64,000 bases of DNA from a virus. The position numbers were made by a program, and so were the translations under genes. The stretch spans positions 11,917-75,916 of IMG/VR virus record IMGVR_UViG_3300042398_001156, one strand, 5' to 3'. Positions 18,771 through 38,100 of this stretch are shown here, piece after piece (within the stretch, counting starts at the first letter, position 1; each line of letters begins with the position of its first letter). The notes beneath the pieces were generated by a model. It worked only from the letters and a program-made list of their open reading frames with translations. It was not told where the DNA came from and did not search any database.

Positions 18771-18950
18771 TTACATTGTCAAGTAAAATATTAAACTTGC
18801 GAGTCCACCCACTGCTGCAGAAACTCCTAACACATAAAGCAGTCCTATAATAAATGGCAACCATCCAAACATGATCAGTTCATATACTGGTGTACGTTGG
18901 ACAAACAACATAAAGAATAAGGCGACACTAAATGCGACAATGAATACCAT
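18771..18950 (-). CDS. Small two-TM membrane protein (59 aa), not in ORF track
   Basis: MVFIVAFSVALFFMLFVQRTPVYELIMFGWLPFIIGLLYVLGVSAAVGGLASLIFYLTM; TAATG coupling to the upstream gene; SD AAGGAG. Confidence 0.65.
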   Translation of the reverse strand: MVFIVAFSVALFFMLFVQRTPVYELIMFGWLPFIIGLLYVLGVSAAVGGLASLIFYLTM

Positions 18951-19624
18951 TACTTTTTCTCCTTGCTGACGATGTCCGCTTCATAGAGGAAGTCGTCTGT
19001 GTCTTCGGTGACCCAAGCATGCTCTTGTTCACAGCTATACTCCTGGGTATTAATCTTCCAAGGTTTGTCTTTGTACTCCTTGGTCACGAAGCTCGGTTCA
19101 TACCAGCGTAAGATCCGGTTGTTGGGTTGCAGTGCGAACTGTCCTGTCTCCAACATGATGAAGTGATGGGACTTATGTTCTTGGGGATCTTCGGATAACG
19201 TGAAGTCCATCCCGTTGTTCTCGTTCGCTCCCCATTGGATCGTGTACAAGTAAGTCCCTTCTAACGTCGTCCGGTTTTTCATCCTGACATCGACACTAGC
19301 ATTATACACATAGTTCAAGGTCACTAAGCTAAAGACTTTAGAGAAGCAGTCCCACAACTGTAGACTATGGAACGGGTAAGTCTCCCAGACCTTTTCGTCT
19401 TCAGGGATCTTCCACGCCAAGGCAGAGATCGGTAACTTGTCCCGCATCATGCCATACTCGGTCAAGACTTGGAACAGTGCCGCCGAACCTTCGTTGCATC
19501 TGATTGAGATCAGAATTGCCTTTGTGTACTTGCCTACGTATTCAGGCGCATCAGGCTTGTCAAAAAAGAACCCATCCCGTACGTATACTTTCATTGGCGG
19601 CAAGCTTGCTTCGATGTATGCCAT
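18950..19624 (-). CDS. Conserved phage hypothetical protein (224 aa)
   Basis: MAY...LPP; LPISAL; LQLWDCFS; EHKSHH; GQFALQPNNR recalled as a widespread uncharacterised phage family. Confidence 0.7.
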   Translation of the reverse strand: MAYIEASLPPMKVYVRDGFFFDKPDAPEYVGKYTKAILISIRCNEGSAALFQVLTEYGMMRDKLPISALAWKIPEDEKVWETYPFHSLQLWDCFSKVFSLVTLNYVYNASVDVRMKNRTTLEGTYLYTIQWGANENNGMDFTLSEDPQEHKSHHFIMLETGQFALQPNNRILRWYEPSFVTKEYKDKPWKINTQEYSCEQEHAWVTEDTDDFLYEADIVSKEKK

Positions 19625-33393: not shown

Positions 33394-34305
33394 ATGCCAA
33401 TAGTTTTGCAGTCAGCCGTCAAAATTCTTAAGCCCATTAAGGTAATGTCTTACGGACCAACCTATAGTGGCAAAACTCTCAGCTCTTTGTATCTAGCTGT
33501 GGGTGCAGTCATGAACATACGTAAATGTACTGAAGCTGAAGCATACAAACACATAGTCTTGATCGACACTGAGTTTGGTCGAGGCGCACTCTACAATAAG
33601 ATTGGTTTATATAACTATCTTAAGATTGATCCGCCATACTTTACTGAAAAGTTAGTGACCATGCTAGCCGAACTCAATACGATGGAACAAGTTGATGTTA
33701 TTATCATCGACTCCATTACCCACTTCTGGGTTAAAGAAGGTGGCATCTTAGATCAAAAAGCAATGAAGGATAAGCTAGGTGGTAACTCATATACTAACTG
33801 GCAAGACTTTACAACTAAGTTCAATAAGATGATTGACTCTATCTTATCTTCACCTAAACATATCTTTGTCACAGCTCGTGCAAAGACAGACACTGCATTA
33901 GTGACTGGTGAAAATGGTAAGGCAACACCAAAGTCTTATGGCTTAAAGCCTGAACTTCGTGACAATGTTGAATACGATTTTGATATTGTATTTAACATCG
34001 ACAAGATTAGCCACAACTTAATCGTTGACAAAGGTATACCTGGTTTAAAACCTGTGTATGAAATGGCTACACCAAAGACAGGTCAAGAAATCTTTGACTT
34101 GTTTACAGCCGATGCTACTTTACCCACACGTAGTAAAGCTGAAATTGCAACAAGTCTTAGACAAATTGCAAAGACCAACGATATGATCCCGTTTGTTCAA
34201 TTAGAACTACGTGGTCGTAAGCTCGAAGACTTAAACGAAGATGAGCTGAAAGCAATCGAAGCTATACTTCTTAATAACATCAAGAAGATGCAAGTTAAAA
34301 ACTAG
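33394..34305 (+). CDS. AAA_24 / Sak4-like recombination ATPase
   Basis: YGPTYSGKT, LIDTE, IIIDSITHFW, RDNVEYDFD. Confidence 0.85.
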   Translation: MPIVLQSAVKILKPIKVMSYGPTYSGKTLSSLYLAVGAVMNIRKCTEAEAYKHIVLIDTEFGRGALYNKIGLYNYLKIDPPYFTEKLVTMLAELNTMEQVDVIIIDSITHFWVKEGGILDQKAMKDKLGGNSYTNWQDFTTKFNKMIDSILSSPKHIFVTARAKTDTALVTGENGKATPKSYGLKPELRDNVEYDFDIVFNIDKISHNLIVDKGIPGLKPVYEMATPKTGQEIFDLFTADATLPTRSKAEIATSLRQIAKTNDMIPFVQLELRGRKLEDLNEDELKAIEAILLNNIKKMQVKN

Positions 34306-34363
34306 GTAAAATTGCGCTGGCATACCGCTTGGTAGTATGCCTTTTAACTTTGAAAGGAGTACA

Positions 34364-34660
34364 GTGAATGTAAAAGAATTTTTATCAGTAATTGATTTAA
34401 CAAATATAAATCAATTTAAAATTAATAATGAAGTGCTTAGTTTAACTTATATCCAAACAGTATTATCACAGTATGATATAGATACTGTAGAAATTAATAC
34501 AAACTTCATGCCGTTAACTACAAAAGATATACATACTATTATACTATCAGACAACATAGATGATGCTGTTCAATATTTAAATACTGAAACACATCTTCCT
34601 AATAGTCCTAGTTATATTAGTATTTCTATCAATATAAAATTAAAAGAAAGGAGAAAATAA
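34364..34660 (+). CDS. Hypothetical protein (GTG start revised from 34337)
   Basis: SD GAAAGGAG before GTG 34364. Confidence 0.55.
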   Translation: MNVKEFLSVIDLTNINQFKINNEVLSLTYIQTVLSQYDIDTVEINTNFMPLTTKDIHTIILSDNIDDAVQYLNTETHLPNSPSYISISINIKLKERRK

Positions 34661-34661
34661 A

Positions 34662-34928
34662 ATGTTTAAATTTGAATACAACGGAGTTATTTATCAAGCA
34701 AAGTCTATTGAAAAACTTCAACAAATTCTACAAAAAGCAGGTTTAAAAATTGATATGGAAACTTTATTACTTAATGAACAACAAGAAATTTTAAATGAAG
34801 TATTAAATGAACAATCAGAAATTGCTAATGAACAATCAGAAATTGCTAATGACGAACTTCAAGATATTATTAACGAAGAATATGCTGAACAATTAGCAGA
34901 TAAAAAAGTTAATAACAAACTAAATTAA
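34662..34928 (+). CDS. Acidic hypothetical protein with NEQSEIA heptad repeats
   Basis: Exact 21-bp tandem duplication at 34806-34847; SD AAAGGAG. Confidence 0.7.
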   Translation: MFKFEYNGVIYQAKSIEKLQQILQKAGLKIDMETLLLNEQQEILNEVLNEQSEIANEQSEIANDELQDIINEEYAEQLADKKVNNKLN

Positions 34929-34958
34929 TGTTATCGTCTAGCCCACGTTACGGGCTTT

Positions 34959-35069
34959 CTAACTAAACTTTTTATTGGGGTAGTCGGGTAAGACAATCTA
35001 TAAACCTTATGGGCTAAAGATTGTAACGTGGGTTCAACTCCCACCTACTCCACCAAAAAGTTTAGTTAG
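34959..35069. repeat. Perfect 15-bp inverted repeat flanking the tmRNA-like RNA
   Basis: CTAACTAAACTTTTT (34959-34973) ... AAAAAGTTTAGTTAG (35055-35069). Confidence 0.85.
34977..35055 (+). ncRNA. 79-nt tmRNA-like tRNA domain (Ala identity) lacking the mRNA-like domain
   Basis: Acceptor GGGGTAG/CTACTCC-A-CCA with G3:U70; stemless D-loop; ACAATCT/AGATTGT helix; AAC linker; T-arm GTGGG-TTCAACT-CCCAC. Confidence 0.75.
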
Positions 35070-35135
35070 GTTAACTTGTTTTGTACCAACAAGTTAATAC
35101 ATCCACCCCCTCTTTCTAAATGGTACTAAATAATA

Positions 35136-35172
35136 CCAAGCATATAAGCTGATTACTTATATGCTGGTTTAT
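35136..35172. terminator. Hairpin at the convergence of the two arms (probable bidirectional terminator)
   Basis: AGCATATAAG-ctgatta-CTTATATGCT with AT-rich flanks, adjacent to the giant-gene stop. Confidence 0.65.
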
Positions 35173-38100
35173 TTATTTTAATATCATAGCTTGTGATTGC
35201 CTGTATCGTACGTACTGTCTCCATTGAATGTTCTTAACTAAACGATATGGGTTAGTAGTAGGTCTACGCATACGTCCAAACTTATTAAACCAATCTCTGT
35301 ATATGTTTTCATATTTAGCCCAACGGCCATTACGTCCGTAACGATATCTACGCGGTGTATACTTTTCATAATTTTGAACAGTATAAACTAAAGGTATTGT
35401 AGTTACAGGAGTATAAGGTTGTCTAGAAACAAATGGTTTAAGTTTAGATTGTTGTAAATTTTCTCTCATAGGTAATGCATTAAGTACTCTAGTTATTGGT
35501 CCTGCAATAGCAAGCTGTCTAATGCTTTGCATAACATCTCTTGTTTCTAAAAATTTAGCAATACCTTTTAATAAAGGCCTTTGTCTTCCCACTAAAGCTG
35601 CACTAGGATCACTTAAAATATTTTGAACATCATATAAACCTAATCCAATACGCAACCCAAAATTTTTACTAACACGTATCCAACCACTTTGCATTTCTAA
35701 TAATTCAAATTCACTATACTGTCCTTCTTCATCTGCGTATTGACCATAAACACCATCGATAACGTCGCTTAATAAAACAACAATACGTGGGTCCGTAATA
35801 CGATCAATCCAGTTCTTAATAGAACGAACAGGGAATGATAAGTATGGAATGTCAGCAAGTAATTGCATTTCTAAAGGACTACGTAAGCCATAATTAAAGA
35901 AACGTTTAAGAGAATTATTAACAGATTCTTGGAAATTGTAACCACGTAACTGTCTATCAAGTAAGTAACCTGCAATACGACCTACGTTTTCTGTATCAGT
36001 ATTTAAGTCTTCATAAAAAAACTTATAACCAGCTTTTGTAATTCTTAATAATTTACCAAACAAAGTTTTATTAGAAGTACCAGTACGCTGTTCTTCTATC
36101 TCGTTATACACTTCTTTAAATGATCGTGTAGAAAAATCATTAGCATCTAAAGCTACGCGTTGACTTACAAGATCTCTTAAGTAAGCAAAACTTTCTTGAC
36201 GATACGTATCAATCTGTGCATTCGTTTGCATAAAGGCACTGATTTCAAATAAGATATTTTTTAAGTCATTATAATCAGCATTATAAATAGGGTTACCATC
36301 TACATCTTTATACTTAGTATATTTTTTCAAACGTTTTTCAATACGTGCCCTATAAATATTACCTTTATCTTCTCCAAATTTTAAGTTGTCATATAAAGTA
36401 AAGTATTCTGCAAAGCGTATATCTAATAAAAAGTTAACAGAATCACGTATGCTTGTACGATTTAATATAGCTAACACACCATCTTTATTTTTTAATTGGT
36501 AAGTAGTATCATTTGATACTTTACTTAAATCTTCAATAGACTTAACACCAACAACGTCTTCTAATAAAAATTTTAATACACTGTCTAAATCTTTTTGGTA
36601 TACTAAAGCATTATTTTCTAAACGATATTTAATTCTATTTTTTAACTCATCTTGTTTTAATGATTGAGCACCTTCAACGTAACCATTAATTCTATATCTA
36701 ATATTTAAAAAGTTTTGTATAACATCTAATACTTGTTCTTTAGTTATTGCAGTTTTATTTAATAGTAATTTATTTAATTTATCATATGATGATTTTACTT
36801 CTAATAAAGTAAGAATACGTTCTTCAGATATATCTTGATACATATTATACACATCAAAAGTTAAACCCATAATACGTATAATTTCTTTATTGTTTTTTAA
36901 TGTGCCATATATATCAAAGTCTTTATAAATTTCACTGTATAACTGTAACCAAGTATCTAACATGTTACGCATAATAAAACCATAATTAAAACGCATTAAT
37001 AACTTTTCAAGATATTGTAACTGTCCTAACCAAGTTGATAATGGACCTGTAAATTTAAATGGTTTATAAGCAGTTTCATAAGAAGACATTAAGTTATCAA
37101 TAGTAACAAGACCTATGTTAAGTACTTCACCTTGCGCTAGTTTATCTTCAAGCAATTTTAAAAGTCCTTTTAATTCTTTCCAATTTTTAATGTTTATTTC
37201 TTTTAATGTAGGTGATATATCAGATCCTAAATCAATACCATTTAAATCAACGGATGTATATTCTTTACCTTTAAATATAATTTTATTAATAGGTGTTTCA
37301 AAAGTATAAGACTTTTTAATAGGAGCATTTAATTCTTTAACATAATCAATAATTTCTTGGAAAGATTTAAATTTAATATCTTTAGAATGTTTACGTCTTC
37401 CCAAAAACTTATCCCATCTTGATTTATTTTCCCAAGTAGGATCATCTTTAACAAATAAATCACCAACTTTTTTAGCGAGTCCTTCAGTATTATAAGCATC
37501 TTTTTGTACAACTAAACGAATAAAGTCTCTATTAGATACTAAGTATTCATAGAATTCTTTTACATCATATACACGTTTAGTTGTTTTATTACCATTGCCA
37601 TCTAGTAAAACAATATCTTTTTTAAAAATAGAAGCAGCGCTAATTAAAGGATAGATAAGTTTATCCATATTCATTATGTTAGTATTTTTAAAACGATTGA
37701 TATCAGTACTAGTTAATGTAGGTGTGTCACCAAAATATCTTGGAACACCATCTTTAATCATTTCAATTGTTTCACCTTCAGGTGTGTGTAATAAAAAGAT
37801 ACCGCTTGTAAAATTACGAGCAAATGATTTGCTTAATGCACCCATTTGAATTTCTCGTTTCTTTTCTAATAATTCTTTTAAACGATTCTTAAAATACTTT
37901 AACGAATCTTTTAAATCTAATTTTTCTATTTGCTCAATAGATAAAATAATATCTTCTTGTTCTTTTTTTGATGTAACAAGTTTACCCGCAAGTTGTTTTA
38001 ATTTGCTTTGGTTAATATACAATTCATCGTTGTTTTCTTTTAAAGATATTTGCGCTGTGCGTATTTCTCTTACTAAATTTTCAATTTTATAAAATGCTAA

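What the first reader, a model, noticed from the sequence alone, without database searches (positions are those of the whole stretch)
34959..35069. Miniature tmRNA: alanine tRNA-like domain with no tag-coding region, inside a processing stem
Seen: 34977-35055 has acceptor GGGGTAG/CTACTCC with G3:U70, discriminator A and encoded CCA; a stemless D-loop (TCGGGTAAG); a 7-bp helix (ACAATCT/AGATTGT) closed by only 18 nt; a 3-nt AAC linker; and a T-arm. It is enclosed by a perfect 15-bp inverted repeat. Known: G3:U70 specifies alanylation, and a stemless D-loop, long P2 and short linker define the SmpB-binding tRNA-like domain of tmRNA, which normally carries ~250+ nt of pseudoknots and tag ORF in place of that 18-nt cap. 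Inference: a processed, chargeable TLD-only RNA. It could sequester SmpB and block tagging of phage proteins, release stalled ribosomes without a degradation tag, or decoy tRNA-targeting defences, since it has no anticodon loop to cut.
Basis: partly seen in the sequence, partly recalled or inferred. Interest (0 to 1): 0.88.

Follow-up and report, generated by a model that had tools for sequence, protein, structure and literature searches.

The report
Phage tag-less mini-tmRNA gene
This lake-water phage carries a real 79-base gene for only the alanine-accepting, tRNA-like end of the bacterial ribosome-rescue RNA (tmRNA). One such RNA was already known from mycobacteriophage DS6A, and here it proves to be a member of a widespread, unannotated phage family that probably interferes with the host's rescue-and-tagging system.

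Summary
Window 34977-35055 (+) has a 7-bp acceptor stem with G3:U70, an A discriminator and an encoded CCA. It also has a stemless D-loop, a 7-bp P2 helix capped by 18 nt, an AAC linker and a T-arm. A perfect 15-bp leader/trailer stem (34959-34973 with 35055-35069) encloses it.

It is not a tRNA and not a full tmRNA. ARAGORN finds nothing, Rfam tRNA scores 31 bits and Rfam tmRNA scores 30-38 bits (cut-off 47). A covariance model built from 10 unrelated phage elements scores it 55.8 bits. The same model scores the published 'TLD-only' tmRNA of mycobacteriophage DS6A 58.8 bits and true tRNA-Ala genes 41 bits or less.

One restrictive pattern scan of IMG/VR gave 41 further distinct elements with strong P2 covariation and no consistent tag frame. 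In 11 related lake-phage contigs the TLD core is invariant, while P2, the enclosing stem and both flanking hairpins change by compensatory substitutions. One relative lacks the element.

Most likely it is a processed, alanine-chargeable RNA that titrates host SmpB and blocks trans-translation, as reported for the DS6A-type RNA in E. coli. Expression, charging and binding are untested. It is a new member of a known kind. This scan has found the family before on other DNA.

The parts
34940..34956 (+). Upstream hairpin 1 (AGCCC / 7-nt loop / GGGCT), directly before the enclosing stem. It may become the protective 3' end of the upstream mRNA after processing, or act as a weak attenuator.
   Evidence: Appears in the MFE fold. 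Conserved in 11 related contigs. The closing pair changes A-U to G.U to G-C.
34959..34973 (+). 5' strand of the 15-bp leader/trailer stem that encloses the TLD.
   Evidence: Perfect complement of 35055-35069. T34970 to C is compensated by A35058 to G in L002, L003 and 8 metagenome contigs. Flank pairing has z = -4.7 against shuffles, and most other family members lack it.
34977..35055 (+). The 79-nt TLD-only (tag-less) mini-tmRNA. In order: acceptor 34977-34983 paired with 35045-35051 (G3:U70), D-loop analogue 34984-34992, P2 34993-34999 paired with 35018-35024, cap 35000-35017, linker 35025-35027, T-arm 35028-35044, A73 at 35052, CCA 35053-35055.
   Evidence: Rfam tRNA 31.4 bits. Rfam tmRNA, model positions 1-374, 30.1 to 38.5 bits. 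Family model R1 55.8 bits. ARAGORN default finds nothing. The TLD core is invariant in 11 related contigs, and P2 changes to ACATAT/ATATGT by compensatory substitutions.
35000..35017 (+). 18-nt cap of P2, standing in place of the roughly 250-nt pseudoknot and tag-ORF region. It is an A-rich internal loop plus a 2-bp mini-hairpin (CC-UUAU-GG).
   Evidence: Folds. It aligns to the family consensus AAAGcc..gg.aa. A second allele has an unrelated 26-nt cap with a 5-bp hairpin.
35055..35069 (+). 3' strand of the enclosing stem. It overlaps the last A of the CCA.
35070..35098 (+). Downstream hairpin 3 (10-11 bp stem, 7-nt loop).
   Evidence: Appears in the MFE fold. G-C to A-U and U-A to U.G changes keep it paired in relatives.
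35139..35177 (.). Bidirectional intrinsic terminator shared by the + strand replication operon (with the TLD) and the - strand giant ORF.
   Evidence: Terminator scan: 2 found against 0.3 expected. Fold.

Best explanation
Window 34977-35055 is a phage gene for a TLD-only (CDS-less) tmRNA: the tRNA-like domain of tmRNA with the pseudoknots and tag reading frame replaced by an 18-nt cap.

Shown here: the structure, its conservation and covariation, and its membership in a widespread phage family that includes the published DS6A element.

Inferred:
1. It is transcribed at the 3' end of the replication-gene operon and ends at the terminator at 35139-35177.
2. It is released from the 15-bp leader/trailer stem, for example by RNase III-type cleavage, followed by RNase P at G34977 and 3' trimming to the encoded CCA.
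3. Host AlaRS charges it through G3:U70 and A73.
4. It binds host SmpB through its tmRNA-type elbow and P2.

Because it has no resume codon or stop codon, it cannot complete trans-translation. Its most likely effect is to compete with host tmRNA for SmpB, and possibly for EF-Tu and stalled ribosomes. That would shut down ssrA tagging and tmRNA-dependent decay of phage products during infection.
For: Anatomy and fold.

The tmRNA model matches both ends around a deleted middle.

R1 was built from 10 unrelated IMG/VR elements. It scores the window 55.8 bits, DS6A 58.8 bits and true tRNA-Ala genes 41 bits or less.

Family covariation on 43 sequences: 98.6% of cells are paired against 77% in shuffles. 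P2a was never selected for, yet it is 95% paired with all four Watson-Crick types at 4 of 5 pairs. Sliding the partner drops pairing to 53-60%.

25 of 43 caps contain no stop triplet in any frame, so there is no tag ORF.

Within the lineage, the TLD core is invariant in 11 contigs while flanks and caps diverge. Contigs with different flanks share the element.

[quoted passage not shown] The DS6A form is reported to inhibit endogenous tmRNA in E. coli (PMC11915505). Both papers cite Mao et al. 2009, which I could not read.

The phage record encodes no SmpB of its own, so any partner must come from the host.
Against: There is no expression, processing, charging or binding data.

The D-loop reads GGGUAAGAC instead of the usual tmRNA GGxUUCGAC, and the linker is UAAC instead of GGAC. 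SmpB contacts could therefore differ.

Rfam tmRNA scores below its cut-off (30-38 against 47 bits).

R1's score is partly inflated, because its training set was fished with a pattern that shares fixed positions with the window.

One close relative (L005) lacks the element entirely, so it is dispensable.

Some phages are reported to need host tmRNA, so inhibition is not self-evidently useful (my own recollection, not checked here).
Confidence: 0.6

Rival explanations
1. Tag-less ribosome rescue. The Ala-charged TLD with SmpB enters stalled ribosomes and accepts the nascent chain. With no message to resume on, the peptidyl-TLD is then released or hydrolysed by host factors (Pth, ArfB-like). Ribosomes are freed without tagging phage proteins for proteolysis.
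For: All tRNA-side features needed for ribosome entry are retained and invariant: G3:U70, ACCA, T-loop and D-loop GG. Mitochondrial and some plastid tmRNAs also lack a tag frame yet are conserved together with SmpB (PMC11915505).
Against: Inhibition by a TLD-only molecule is reported whether or not it is chargeable (PMC4131195). That favours titration over productive rescue. No release mechanism is known or encoded nearby.
Confidence: 0.2
2. A purely cis-acting structure. The tRNA-like fold plus long stem serves as an RNase P / RNase III punctuation mark or 3'-end stabiliser for the replication operon mRNA, and the excised RNA has no function of its own.
For: It sits in the 3' UTR between the last + strand ORF (ends 34928) and the terminator. 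Conserved hairpins flank it and a conserved 15-bp stem encloses it.
Against: A cleavage signal would not need an invariant G3:U70, ACCA, tmRNA-type D-loop and linker. Most family members have no enclosing stem and occur in varied contexts.
Confidence: 0.1
3. An unusual decoding tRNA, either D-armless or with a long variable arm. One example is the tRNA-Ile(UAU) that ARAGORN draws at a relaxed threshold.
For: Rfam tRNA scores just above its cut-off (31.4 against 29 bits). ARAGORN with -ps95 proposes tRNA-Ile(tat).
Against: That fold needs an anticodon stem with 2 mismatches in 5 pairs and a G.U-rich D-stem. It destroys the perfect 7-bp P2. The 85-nt allele replaces the supposed anticodon arm with unrelated sequence while keeping P2 by compensatory changes. 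ARAGORN at default settings finds nothing.
Confidence: 0.03
4. A decoy or cofactor in defence and counter-defence. It might be a substrate sponge for tRNA-targeting nucleases, or an RNA partner of an anti-CRISPR-type protein that binds t(m)RNA fragments.
For: Only analogy. AcrIIIA1 of a staphylococcal phage associates with tRNA and tmRNA fragments (PMC11662646).
Against: It has no anticodon loop to be cut. No associated protein gene is conserved next to it. The two small upstream ORFs have no PHROG match.
Confidence: 0.04
5. A relic of integration into a host tmRNA gene (att-site scar), or a Y-RNA-like tRNA mimic on a Ro60-binding stem.
For: tmRNA 3' ends are common phage att sites (PMC9004378 mentions ssrA fragments in prophages). 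A tRNA-like module on a long stem recalls bacterial YrlA (PMC4201824, title and abstract only).
Against: Both halves of the TLD are present and covary. The 75.9-kb record has no tyrosine or serine recombinase and no TROVE/Ro60 gene, although the record is only about 71% complete. No Y-RNA family matched at E of 10 or less.
Confidence: 0.03

Closest known systems
'TLD only' / CDS-less tmRNA of Mycobacterium phage DS6A (JN698994 28478-28560; tmRNA Website tmID 11587; Mao et al. 2009, as cited in PMC4131195 and PMC11915505)
   Same: The architecture is the same: 7-bp G3:U70 acceptor, stemless D-loop, short P2a, A-rich cap with a small hairpin, short linker and T-arm. Neither has pseudoknots or a tag frame. 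Both are phage-encoded. My model scores them about equally (58.8 and 55.8 bits).
   Different: The phage lineage and host GC content are unrelated (69% against 47% GC for the element). The window has the D-loop GGGUAAGAC and linker UAAC, where DS6A has GGUGGUCGAC and CAC. The window encodes CCA, while DS6A ends ACUA. Only the window element is enclosed in a 15-bp leader/trailer stem.
Bacterial one-piece tmRNA (Rfam RF00023), tRNA-like domain
   Same: Acceptor stem, G3:U70, ACCA, T-arm, no D-stem, and P2 in place of the anticodon arm. The model aligns positions 1-18 and 345-374. The acceptor and T-arm are 31/32 identical to the tmRNA of an uncultured 1.2-Mb Bacilli MAG.
   Different: About 326 model positions are missing: PK1-4, the resume codon, the tag ORF and the stop. 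The score is below the gathering cut-off (30-38 against 47 bits).
Jakobid mitochondrial tmRNA (Rfam RF02544) and about 65-bp CDS-less plastid tmRNAs (PMC11915505)
   Same: Natural tmRNAs reduced to little more than the TLD, with no evident tag frame.
   Different: They are organellar, descend vertically and pair with nuclear SmpB. RF02544 does not match the window element at all.
tRNA-Ala
   Same: G3:U70, A73 and CCA. Some tRNA-Ala genes have an identical acceptor and T-stem (L011, L014, L017).
   Different: The window element has no D-stem and no 5-bp anticodon stem with a 7-nt loop. ARAGORN rejects it.

Membership tests
Phage TLD-only (CDS-less) tmRNA, DS6A type | Matches a structure-and-sequence model of the family that was not trained on it, and scores above tRNAs | tested here: met
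   R1 was built from 10 unrelated IMG/VR elements. Scores: window 55.8 bits, DS6A 58.8 bits, tRNA-Ala/Val 41 bits or less. Caveat: the training set was found with a pattern that shares fixed positions with the window. The 85-nt allele scores only 42 bits because of its longer cap.
Phage TLD-only (CDS-less) tmRNA, DS6A type | P2 helix closed by a short cap, with no pseudoknots and no resume codon/ORF/stop | tested here: met
   7-bp P2 with an 18-nt cap. The two alleles share no frame. 25 of 43 family caps have no stop triplet.
Phage TLD-only (CDS-less) tmRNA, DS6A type | Inhibits host trans-translation or binds SmpB | not testable with these tools
   Known only from the literature for a DS6A-type RNA in E. 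coli (PMC4131195, PMC11915505).
tmRNA (RF00023) | Acceptor stem with G3:U70, A73 and a 3' CCA | tested here: met
   Read directly from the sequence. Invariant in 11 relatives.
tmRNA (RF00023) | T-arm with a UUC..A T-loop, a stemless D-loop with GG, and P2 replacing the anticodon arm | tested here: met
   P2 covaries. The D-loop motif is divergent: UAAGAC instead of UUCGAC.
tmRNA (RF00023) | mRNA-like domain with resume codon, tag ORF and stop, plus pseudoknots | tested here: not met
   Only 18 nt lie between the P2 strands. About 326 model positions are deleted.
tmRNA (RF00023) | Score at or above the Rfam gathering cut-off (47 bits) | tested here: not met
   30.1 bits and 38.5 bits.
tRNA (RF00005) | Cloverleaf with a D-stem and an anticodon arm (5 bp plus a 7-nt loop) | tested here: not met
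   The cmscan alignment marks non-standard D-stem pairs. ARAGORN at default finds none. The relaxed ARAGORN fold is mismatched and is not conserved in the second allele. The bit score of 31.4 only just passes the cut-off of 29.
mt-tmRNA (RF02544) | Match to the family model | tested here: not met
   No hit on the element. The best hit in the genome lies elsewhere, at 11.9 bits.
Bacterial Y RNA (YrlA-like) | Match to a Y-RNA model and a Ro60/TROVE partner gene | tested here: not met
   No such Rfam hit at E of 10 or less. No TROVE gene in the record (the record is about 71% complete).

The most novel reading that the evidence does not exclude
The enclosed TLD may be more than an SmpB sponge: a working minimal rescue RNA. 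It would be released from its 15-bp stem, charged with alanine and used with host SmpB to free stalled ribosomes without a degradation tag. In the 85-nt allele, the cap reads GCA GAU GCU CCU GCU UAA, which could append a five-residue mini-tag (ADAPA). That would make it the smallest functional tmRNA known.
Probability: 0.08. Interest if true: 0.85.

Novelty: new member of a known kind. Interest (0 to 1): 0.45.

Why it matters
Trans-translation is the main ribosome-rescue and quality-control pathway in bacteria. A phage RNA that switches it off or diverts it would be a compact host-takeover tool.

As far as I could find in the literature, only one phage example is described (DS6A). Here, a single restrictive DNA pattern recovered 41 more distinct, covarying elements from uncultivated phages, and the window's lake-phage lineage adds 11 contigs. 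Interference with tmRNA-SmpB therefore looks like a common phage strategy, yet ARAGORN and the Rfam cut-offs miss it.

The invariant TLD next to freely changing caps gives a ready-made set of natural variants for testing what SmpB and AlaRS need. The enclosing stem gives a testable processing pathway.

Tried and rejected
- Megablast of 34000-36500 against cultured phages: no match.
- Public RNA runs: no RNA holder listed. All 24 holders are lake or freshwater DNA metagenomes, so expression could not be examined.
- Laid DNA contigs: these only showed that contigs with different flanks share the element, plus the 34970 T>C variant.
- mt-tmRNA model RF02544: no hit on the element.
- SmpB, tyrosine and serine recombinases, TROVE: none in the 75.9-kb record. 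The record is about 71% complete, so absence is not proven.
- Host assignment: a genome-wide pattern scan found the same acceptor and T-arm in tmRNAs of uncultured Bacilli MAGs, but also in Thorsellia, Christensenellaceae and several tRNA-Ala genes. BLAST of 20 kb of phage DNA against three Bacilli MAGs matched only the tmRNA 3' end, with no spacer-like hits. The host therefore remains a lead only.
- MAFFT alignment of all 41 elements (A2) misaligned the 5' ends, so I built the model from a 10-sequence subset with equal D-loop length (A3).
- A mini tag ORF in the cap: rejected as a general feature. It is kept only as the low-probability novel case for the 85-nt allele.
- Mao et al. 2009 and Jacob et al. 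2004 are not held in the library. Their content is cited second-hand.
- Sigma-70-like promoter scan: 4 sites against 6.4 expected, so uninformative.

Full report
**1. What is there**

The window is part of a 75.9-kb IMG/VR virus record that is about 71% complete. The phage is found in lake and freshwater metagenomes.

The + strand carries a replication module: primase, helicase, family A DNA polymerase, exonuclease and a Sak4-like protein. It ends with two small ORFs without family matches, the last stopping at 34928. An 8437-aa ORF converges from the - strand and ends at 35173.

The 244-nt gap between them holds the finding. The unconstrained fold of 34930-35180 reproduces it (z = -6.9, 0 of 200 shuffles as stable). 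In order along the + strand it contains:
- hairpin 1 (34940-34956);
- a perfect 15-bp stem (34959-34973 with 35055-69), joined through a 3x3 internal loop to a 7-bp acceptor stem;
- an unpaired 9-nt D-loop analogue;
- a 7-bp P2 helix capped by 18 nt;
- an AAC linker;
- a canonical T-arm;
- A73 and CCA;
- hairpin 3 (35070-35098);
- a bidirectional terminator (35139-35177).

**2. Neither a tRNA nor a full tmRNA**

ARAGORN finds nothing in the window, the whole record or the relatives. Rfam tRNA just passes its cut-off (31.4 against 29 bits), but with non-standard D-stem pairs.

Rfam tmRNA aligns model positions 1-18 and 345-374 to the two ends and deletes about 326 positions in between. It scores 30.1 to 38.5 bits against a cut-off of 47. 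The mitochondrial tmRNA model does not hit the element.

At a relaxed threshold ARAGORN draws a tRNA-Ile(UAU). That fold has a mismatched anticodon stem and breaks the perfect P2.

**3. Relatives**

Four related IMG/VR contigs were found through the neighbouring Sak4-like protein at 80-99% amino-acid identity. Three carry the element. The fourth, L005, has only a 91-nt gap with an ordinary terminator and no trace of the element. A metagenome scan added eight more contigs.

Across these 11 contigs plus the window:
- The acceptor, D-loop, linker, T-arm and ACCA are invariant.
- P2 and the cap exist as two alleles. The 79-nt form has ACAATCT/AGATTGT with an 18-nt cap. The 85-nt form has ACATAT/ATATGT with an unrelated 26-nt cap holding a 5-bp hairpin. 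P2 is therefore kept by compensatory change while the cap sequence is free.
- The enclosing stem changes U34970-A35058 to C-G.
- Hairpin 1 changes A-U to G.U to G-C.
- Hairpin 3 changes G-C to A-U.
- The three leader bases opposite ACC vary freely (ATT, AAT, AAA).

This is the signature of a structured RNA under selection, not of a decaying relic. Assembled contigs from four lake runs with different flanking sequence share the element.

**4. A family**

I scanned IMG/VR with a deliberately narrow pattern: GGGG, 9-14 nt, GAC, 20-50 nt, T-loop, CTCCACCA. It gave 68 loci.
- 10 are ordinary tRNA-Ala/Val genes.
- 9 are 3' tmRNA fragments or lack acceptor pairing.
- 44 unique sequences have a perfect 7-bp acceptor. 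Of these, 41 are unrelated to the window and are 67-93 nt long.

Most of the 41 have the classic tmRNA D-loop (GGUUUCGAC) and GGAC linker. They also have a 5-8 bp P2a, an A-rich internal loop, a 2-4 bp mini-hairpin and a short A/C-rich return strand. The median P2a is 6 bp and the median cap is 18 nt, so the window is typical. 25 of 43 caps contain no stop triplet in any frame, so no tag frame can be general.

I built a covariance model, R1, from 10 of these with equal D-loop length. Its scores are:

| Sequence | R1 bits |
|---|---|
| Other family members | 45-90 |
| Window element | 55.8 (the only hit in 64 kb) |
| DS6A element | 58.8 |
| tRNA-Ala/Val genes | 41 or less |

On the model-guided alignment of 43 sequences, 98.6% of pair cells are standard pairs, against 77% after shuffling and 53-60% after sliding the partner. 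P2a was not part of the search pattern or of my filter, yet it is 95% paired, with double-sided changes at 4 of 5 pairs.

Two caveats apply. Acceptor pairing was a selection criterion. R1 also shares fixed pattern positions with the window, which inflates its score somewhat.

**5. What is known**

Hudson, Lau and Williams (2014, PMC4131195) list mycobacteriophage DS6A as 'TLD only'. They state that a similar molecule, chargeable or not, strongly inhibits tmRNA, perhaps by titrating SmpB (citing Mao et al. 2009).

The 2025 tmRNA database paper (PMC11915505) repeats that the DS6A form inhibits endogenous tmRNA in E. coli. It also reports CDS-less plastid and mitochondrial tmRNAs.

I could not read Mao et al. 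2009 itself. Two full-text searches found no description of a wider phage family.

Earlier notes of this scan report the same family in many other phage genomes. I reached the family independently here, and I tested the DS6A link myself.

**6. How it most likely works**

Shown: an RNA gene with all tRNA-side identity elements of tmRNA and no message.

Inferred:
- It is co-transcribed with the replication operon, since there is no room for a promoter between hairpin 1 and the stem.
- It is excised from the leader/trailer stem, then matured by RNase P and 3' trimming.
- AlaRS charges it and host SmpB binds it. The record encodes no SmpB of its own.
- The result is competitive inhibition of trans-translation.

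The reported independence from charging favours titration over productive rescue. Tag-less rescue remains the main rival. Most family members lack the enclosing stem (only L075 and L055 have comparable flank pairing), so it is a lineage-specific addition and most simply a processing or precursor-stability device.

**7. Host lead**

The acceptor stem and T-arm are 31/32 identical to the tmRNA 3' end of an uncultured 1.2-Mb Bacilli MAG, whose tmRNA also starts GGGGUAG. The same arms occur in other taxa and in tRNA-Ala genes, and no spacer-like matches were found. This is only a lead.

**8. Verdict**

The kind is already described, so this is a new, somewhat divergent member with an unusual enclosing stem. 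Its wider interest is that the family is common in uncultivated phages and unannotated.

Noticed in passing
window 35173-60486 (-): A single 8437-aa ORF, about a third of the 75.9-kb record. It lies between the TLD and the major head protein gene. Its GC content is 25-30%, against 32-40% elsewhere. It has no Pfam match, no meaningful PHROG match and no tandem repeats. The same convergent ORF is open in relatives L003 and L005. Earlier unchecked notes of this scan suggest a fused two-barrel RNA polymerase inside it. I did not test that.
   Followed up: partly
L003 6435-6519 and L089-L096 (85-nt allele): The cap of the second allele reads GCA GAU GCU CCU GCU UAA, an Ala-rich 5-codon frame that starts with the commonest tmRNA resume codon and ends in UAA. 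The window allele has no equivalent frame, and most family caps have no stop triplet, so this is probably chance.
   Followed up: partly
L005 6177-6267: The closest relative without the element has only a terminator-like hairpin in the same gap. The mini-tmRNA is therefore a presence/absence polymorphism within one phage group.
   Followed up: yes
L075 607-686 and L055 8508-8588 (IMG/VR): Two unrelated family members also have strong leader/trailer complementarity around the TLD (12-bp stems, z = -4.6 and -3.0). An enclosing stem may therefore have arisen more than once.
   Followed up: partly
window 18950-19624 (-): A 224-aa ORF matches PHROG 3704 strongly (E = 1e-53). That family is annotated 'ferredoxin' (auxiliary metabolic / host takeover) and lies in the highest-GC part of the window.
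   Followed up: no
L011 (CAIQHW010000454.1) 44-483: A 1.9-kb contig binned as an uncultured bacterium carries a tight Val-Pro-Leu-Ala tRNA array. Its tRNA-Ala shares the acceptor and T-stem with the phage TLD. It could be a phage fragment that was binned wrongly.
   Followed up: no
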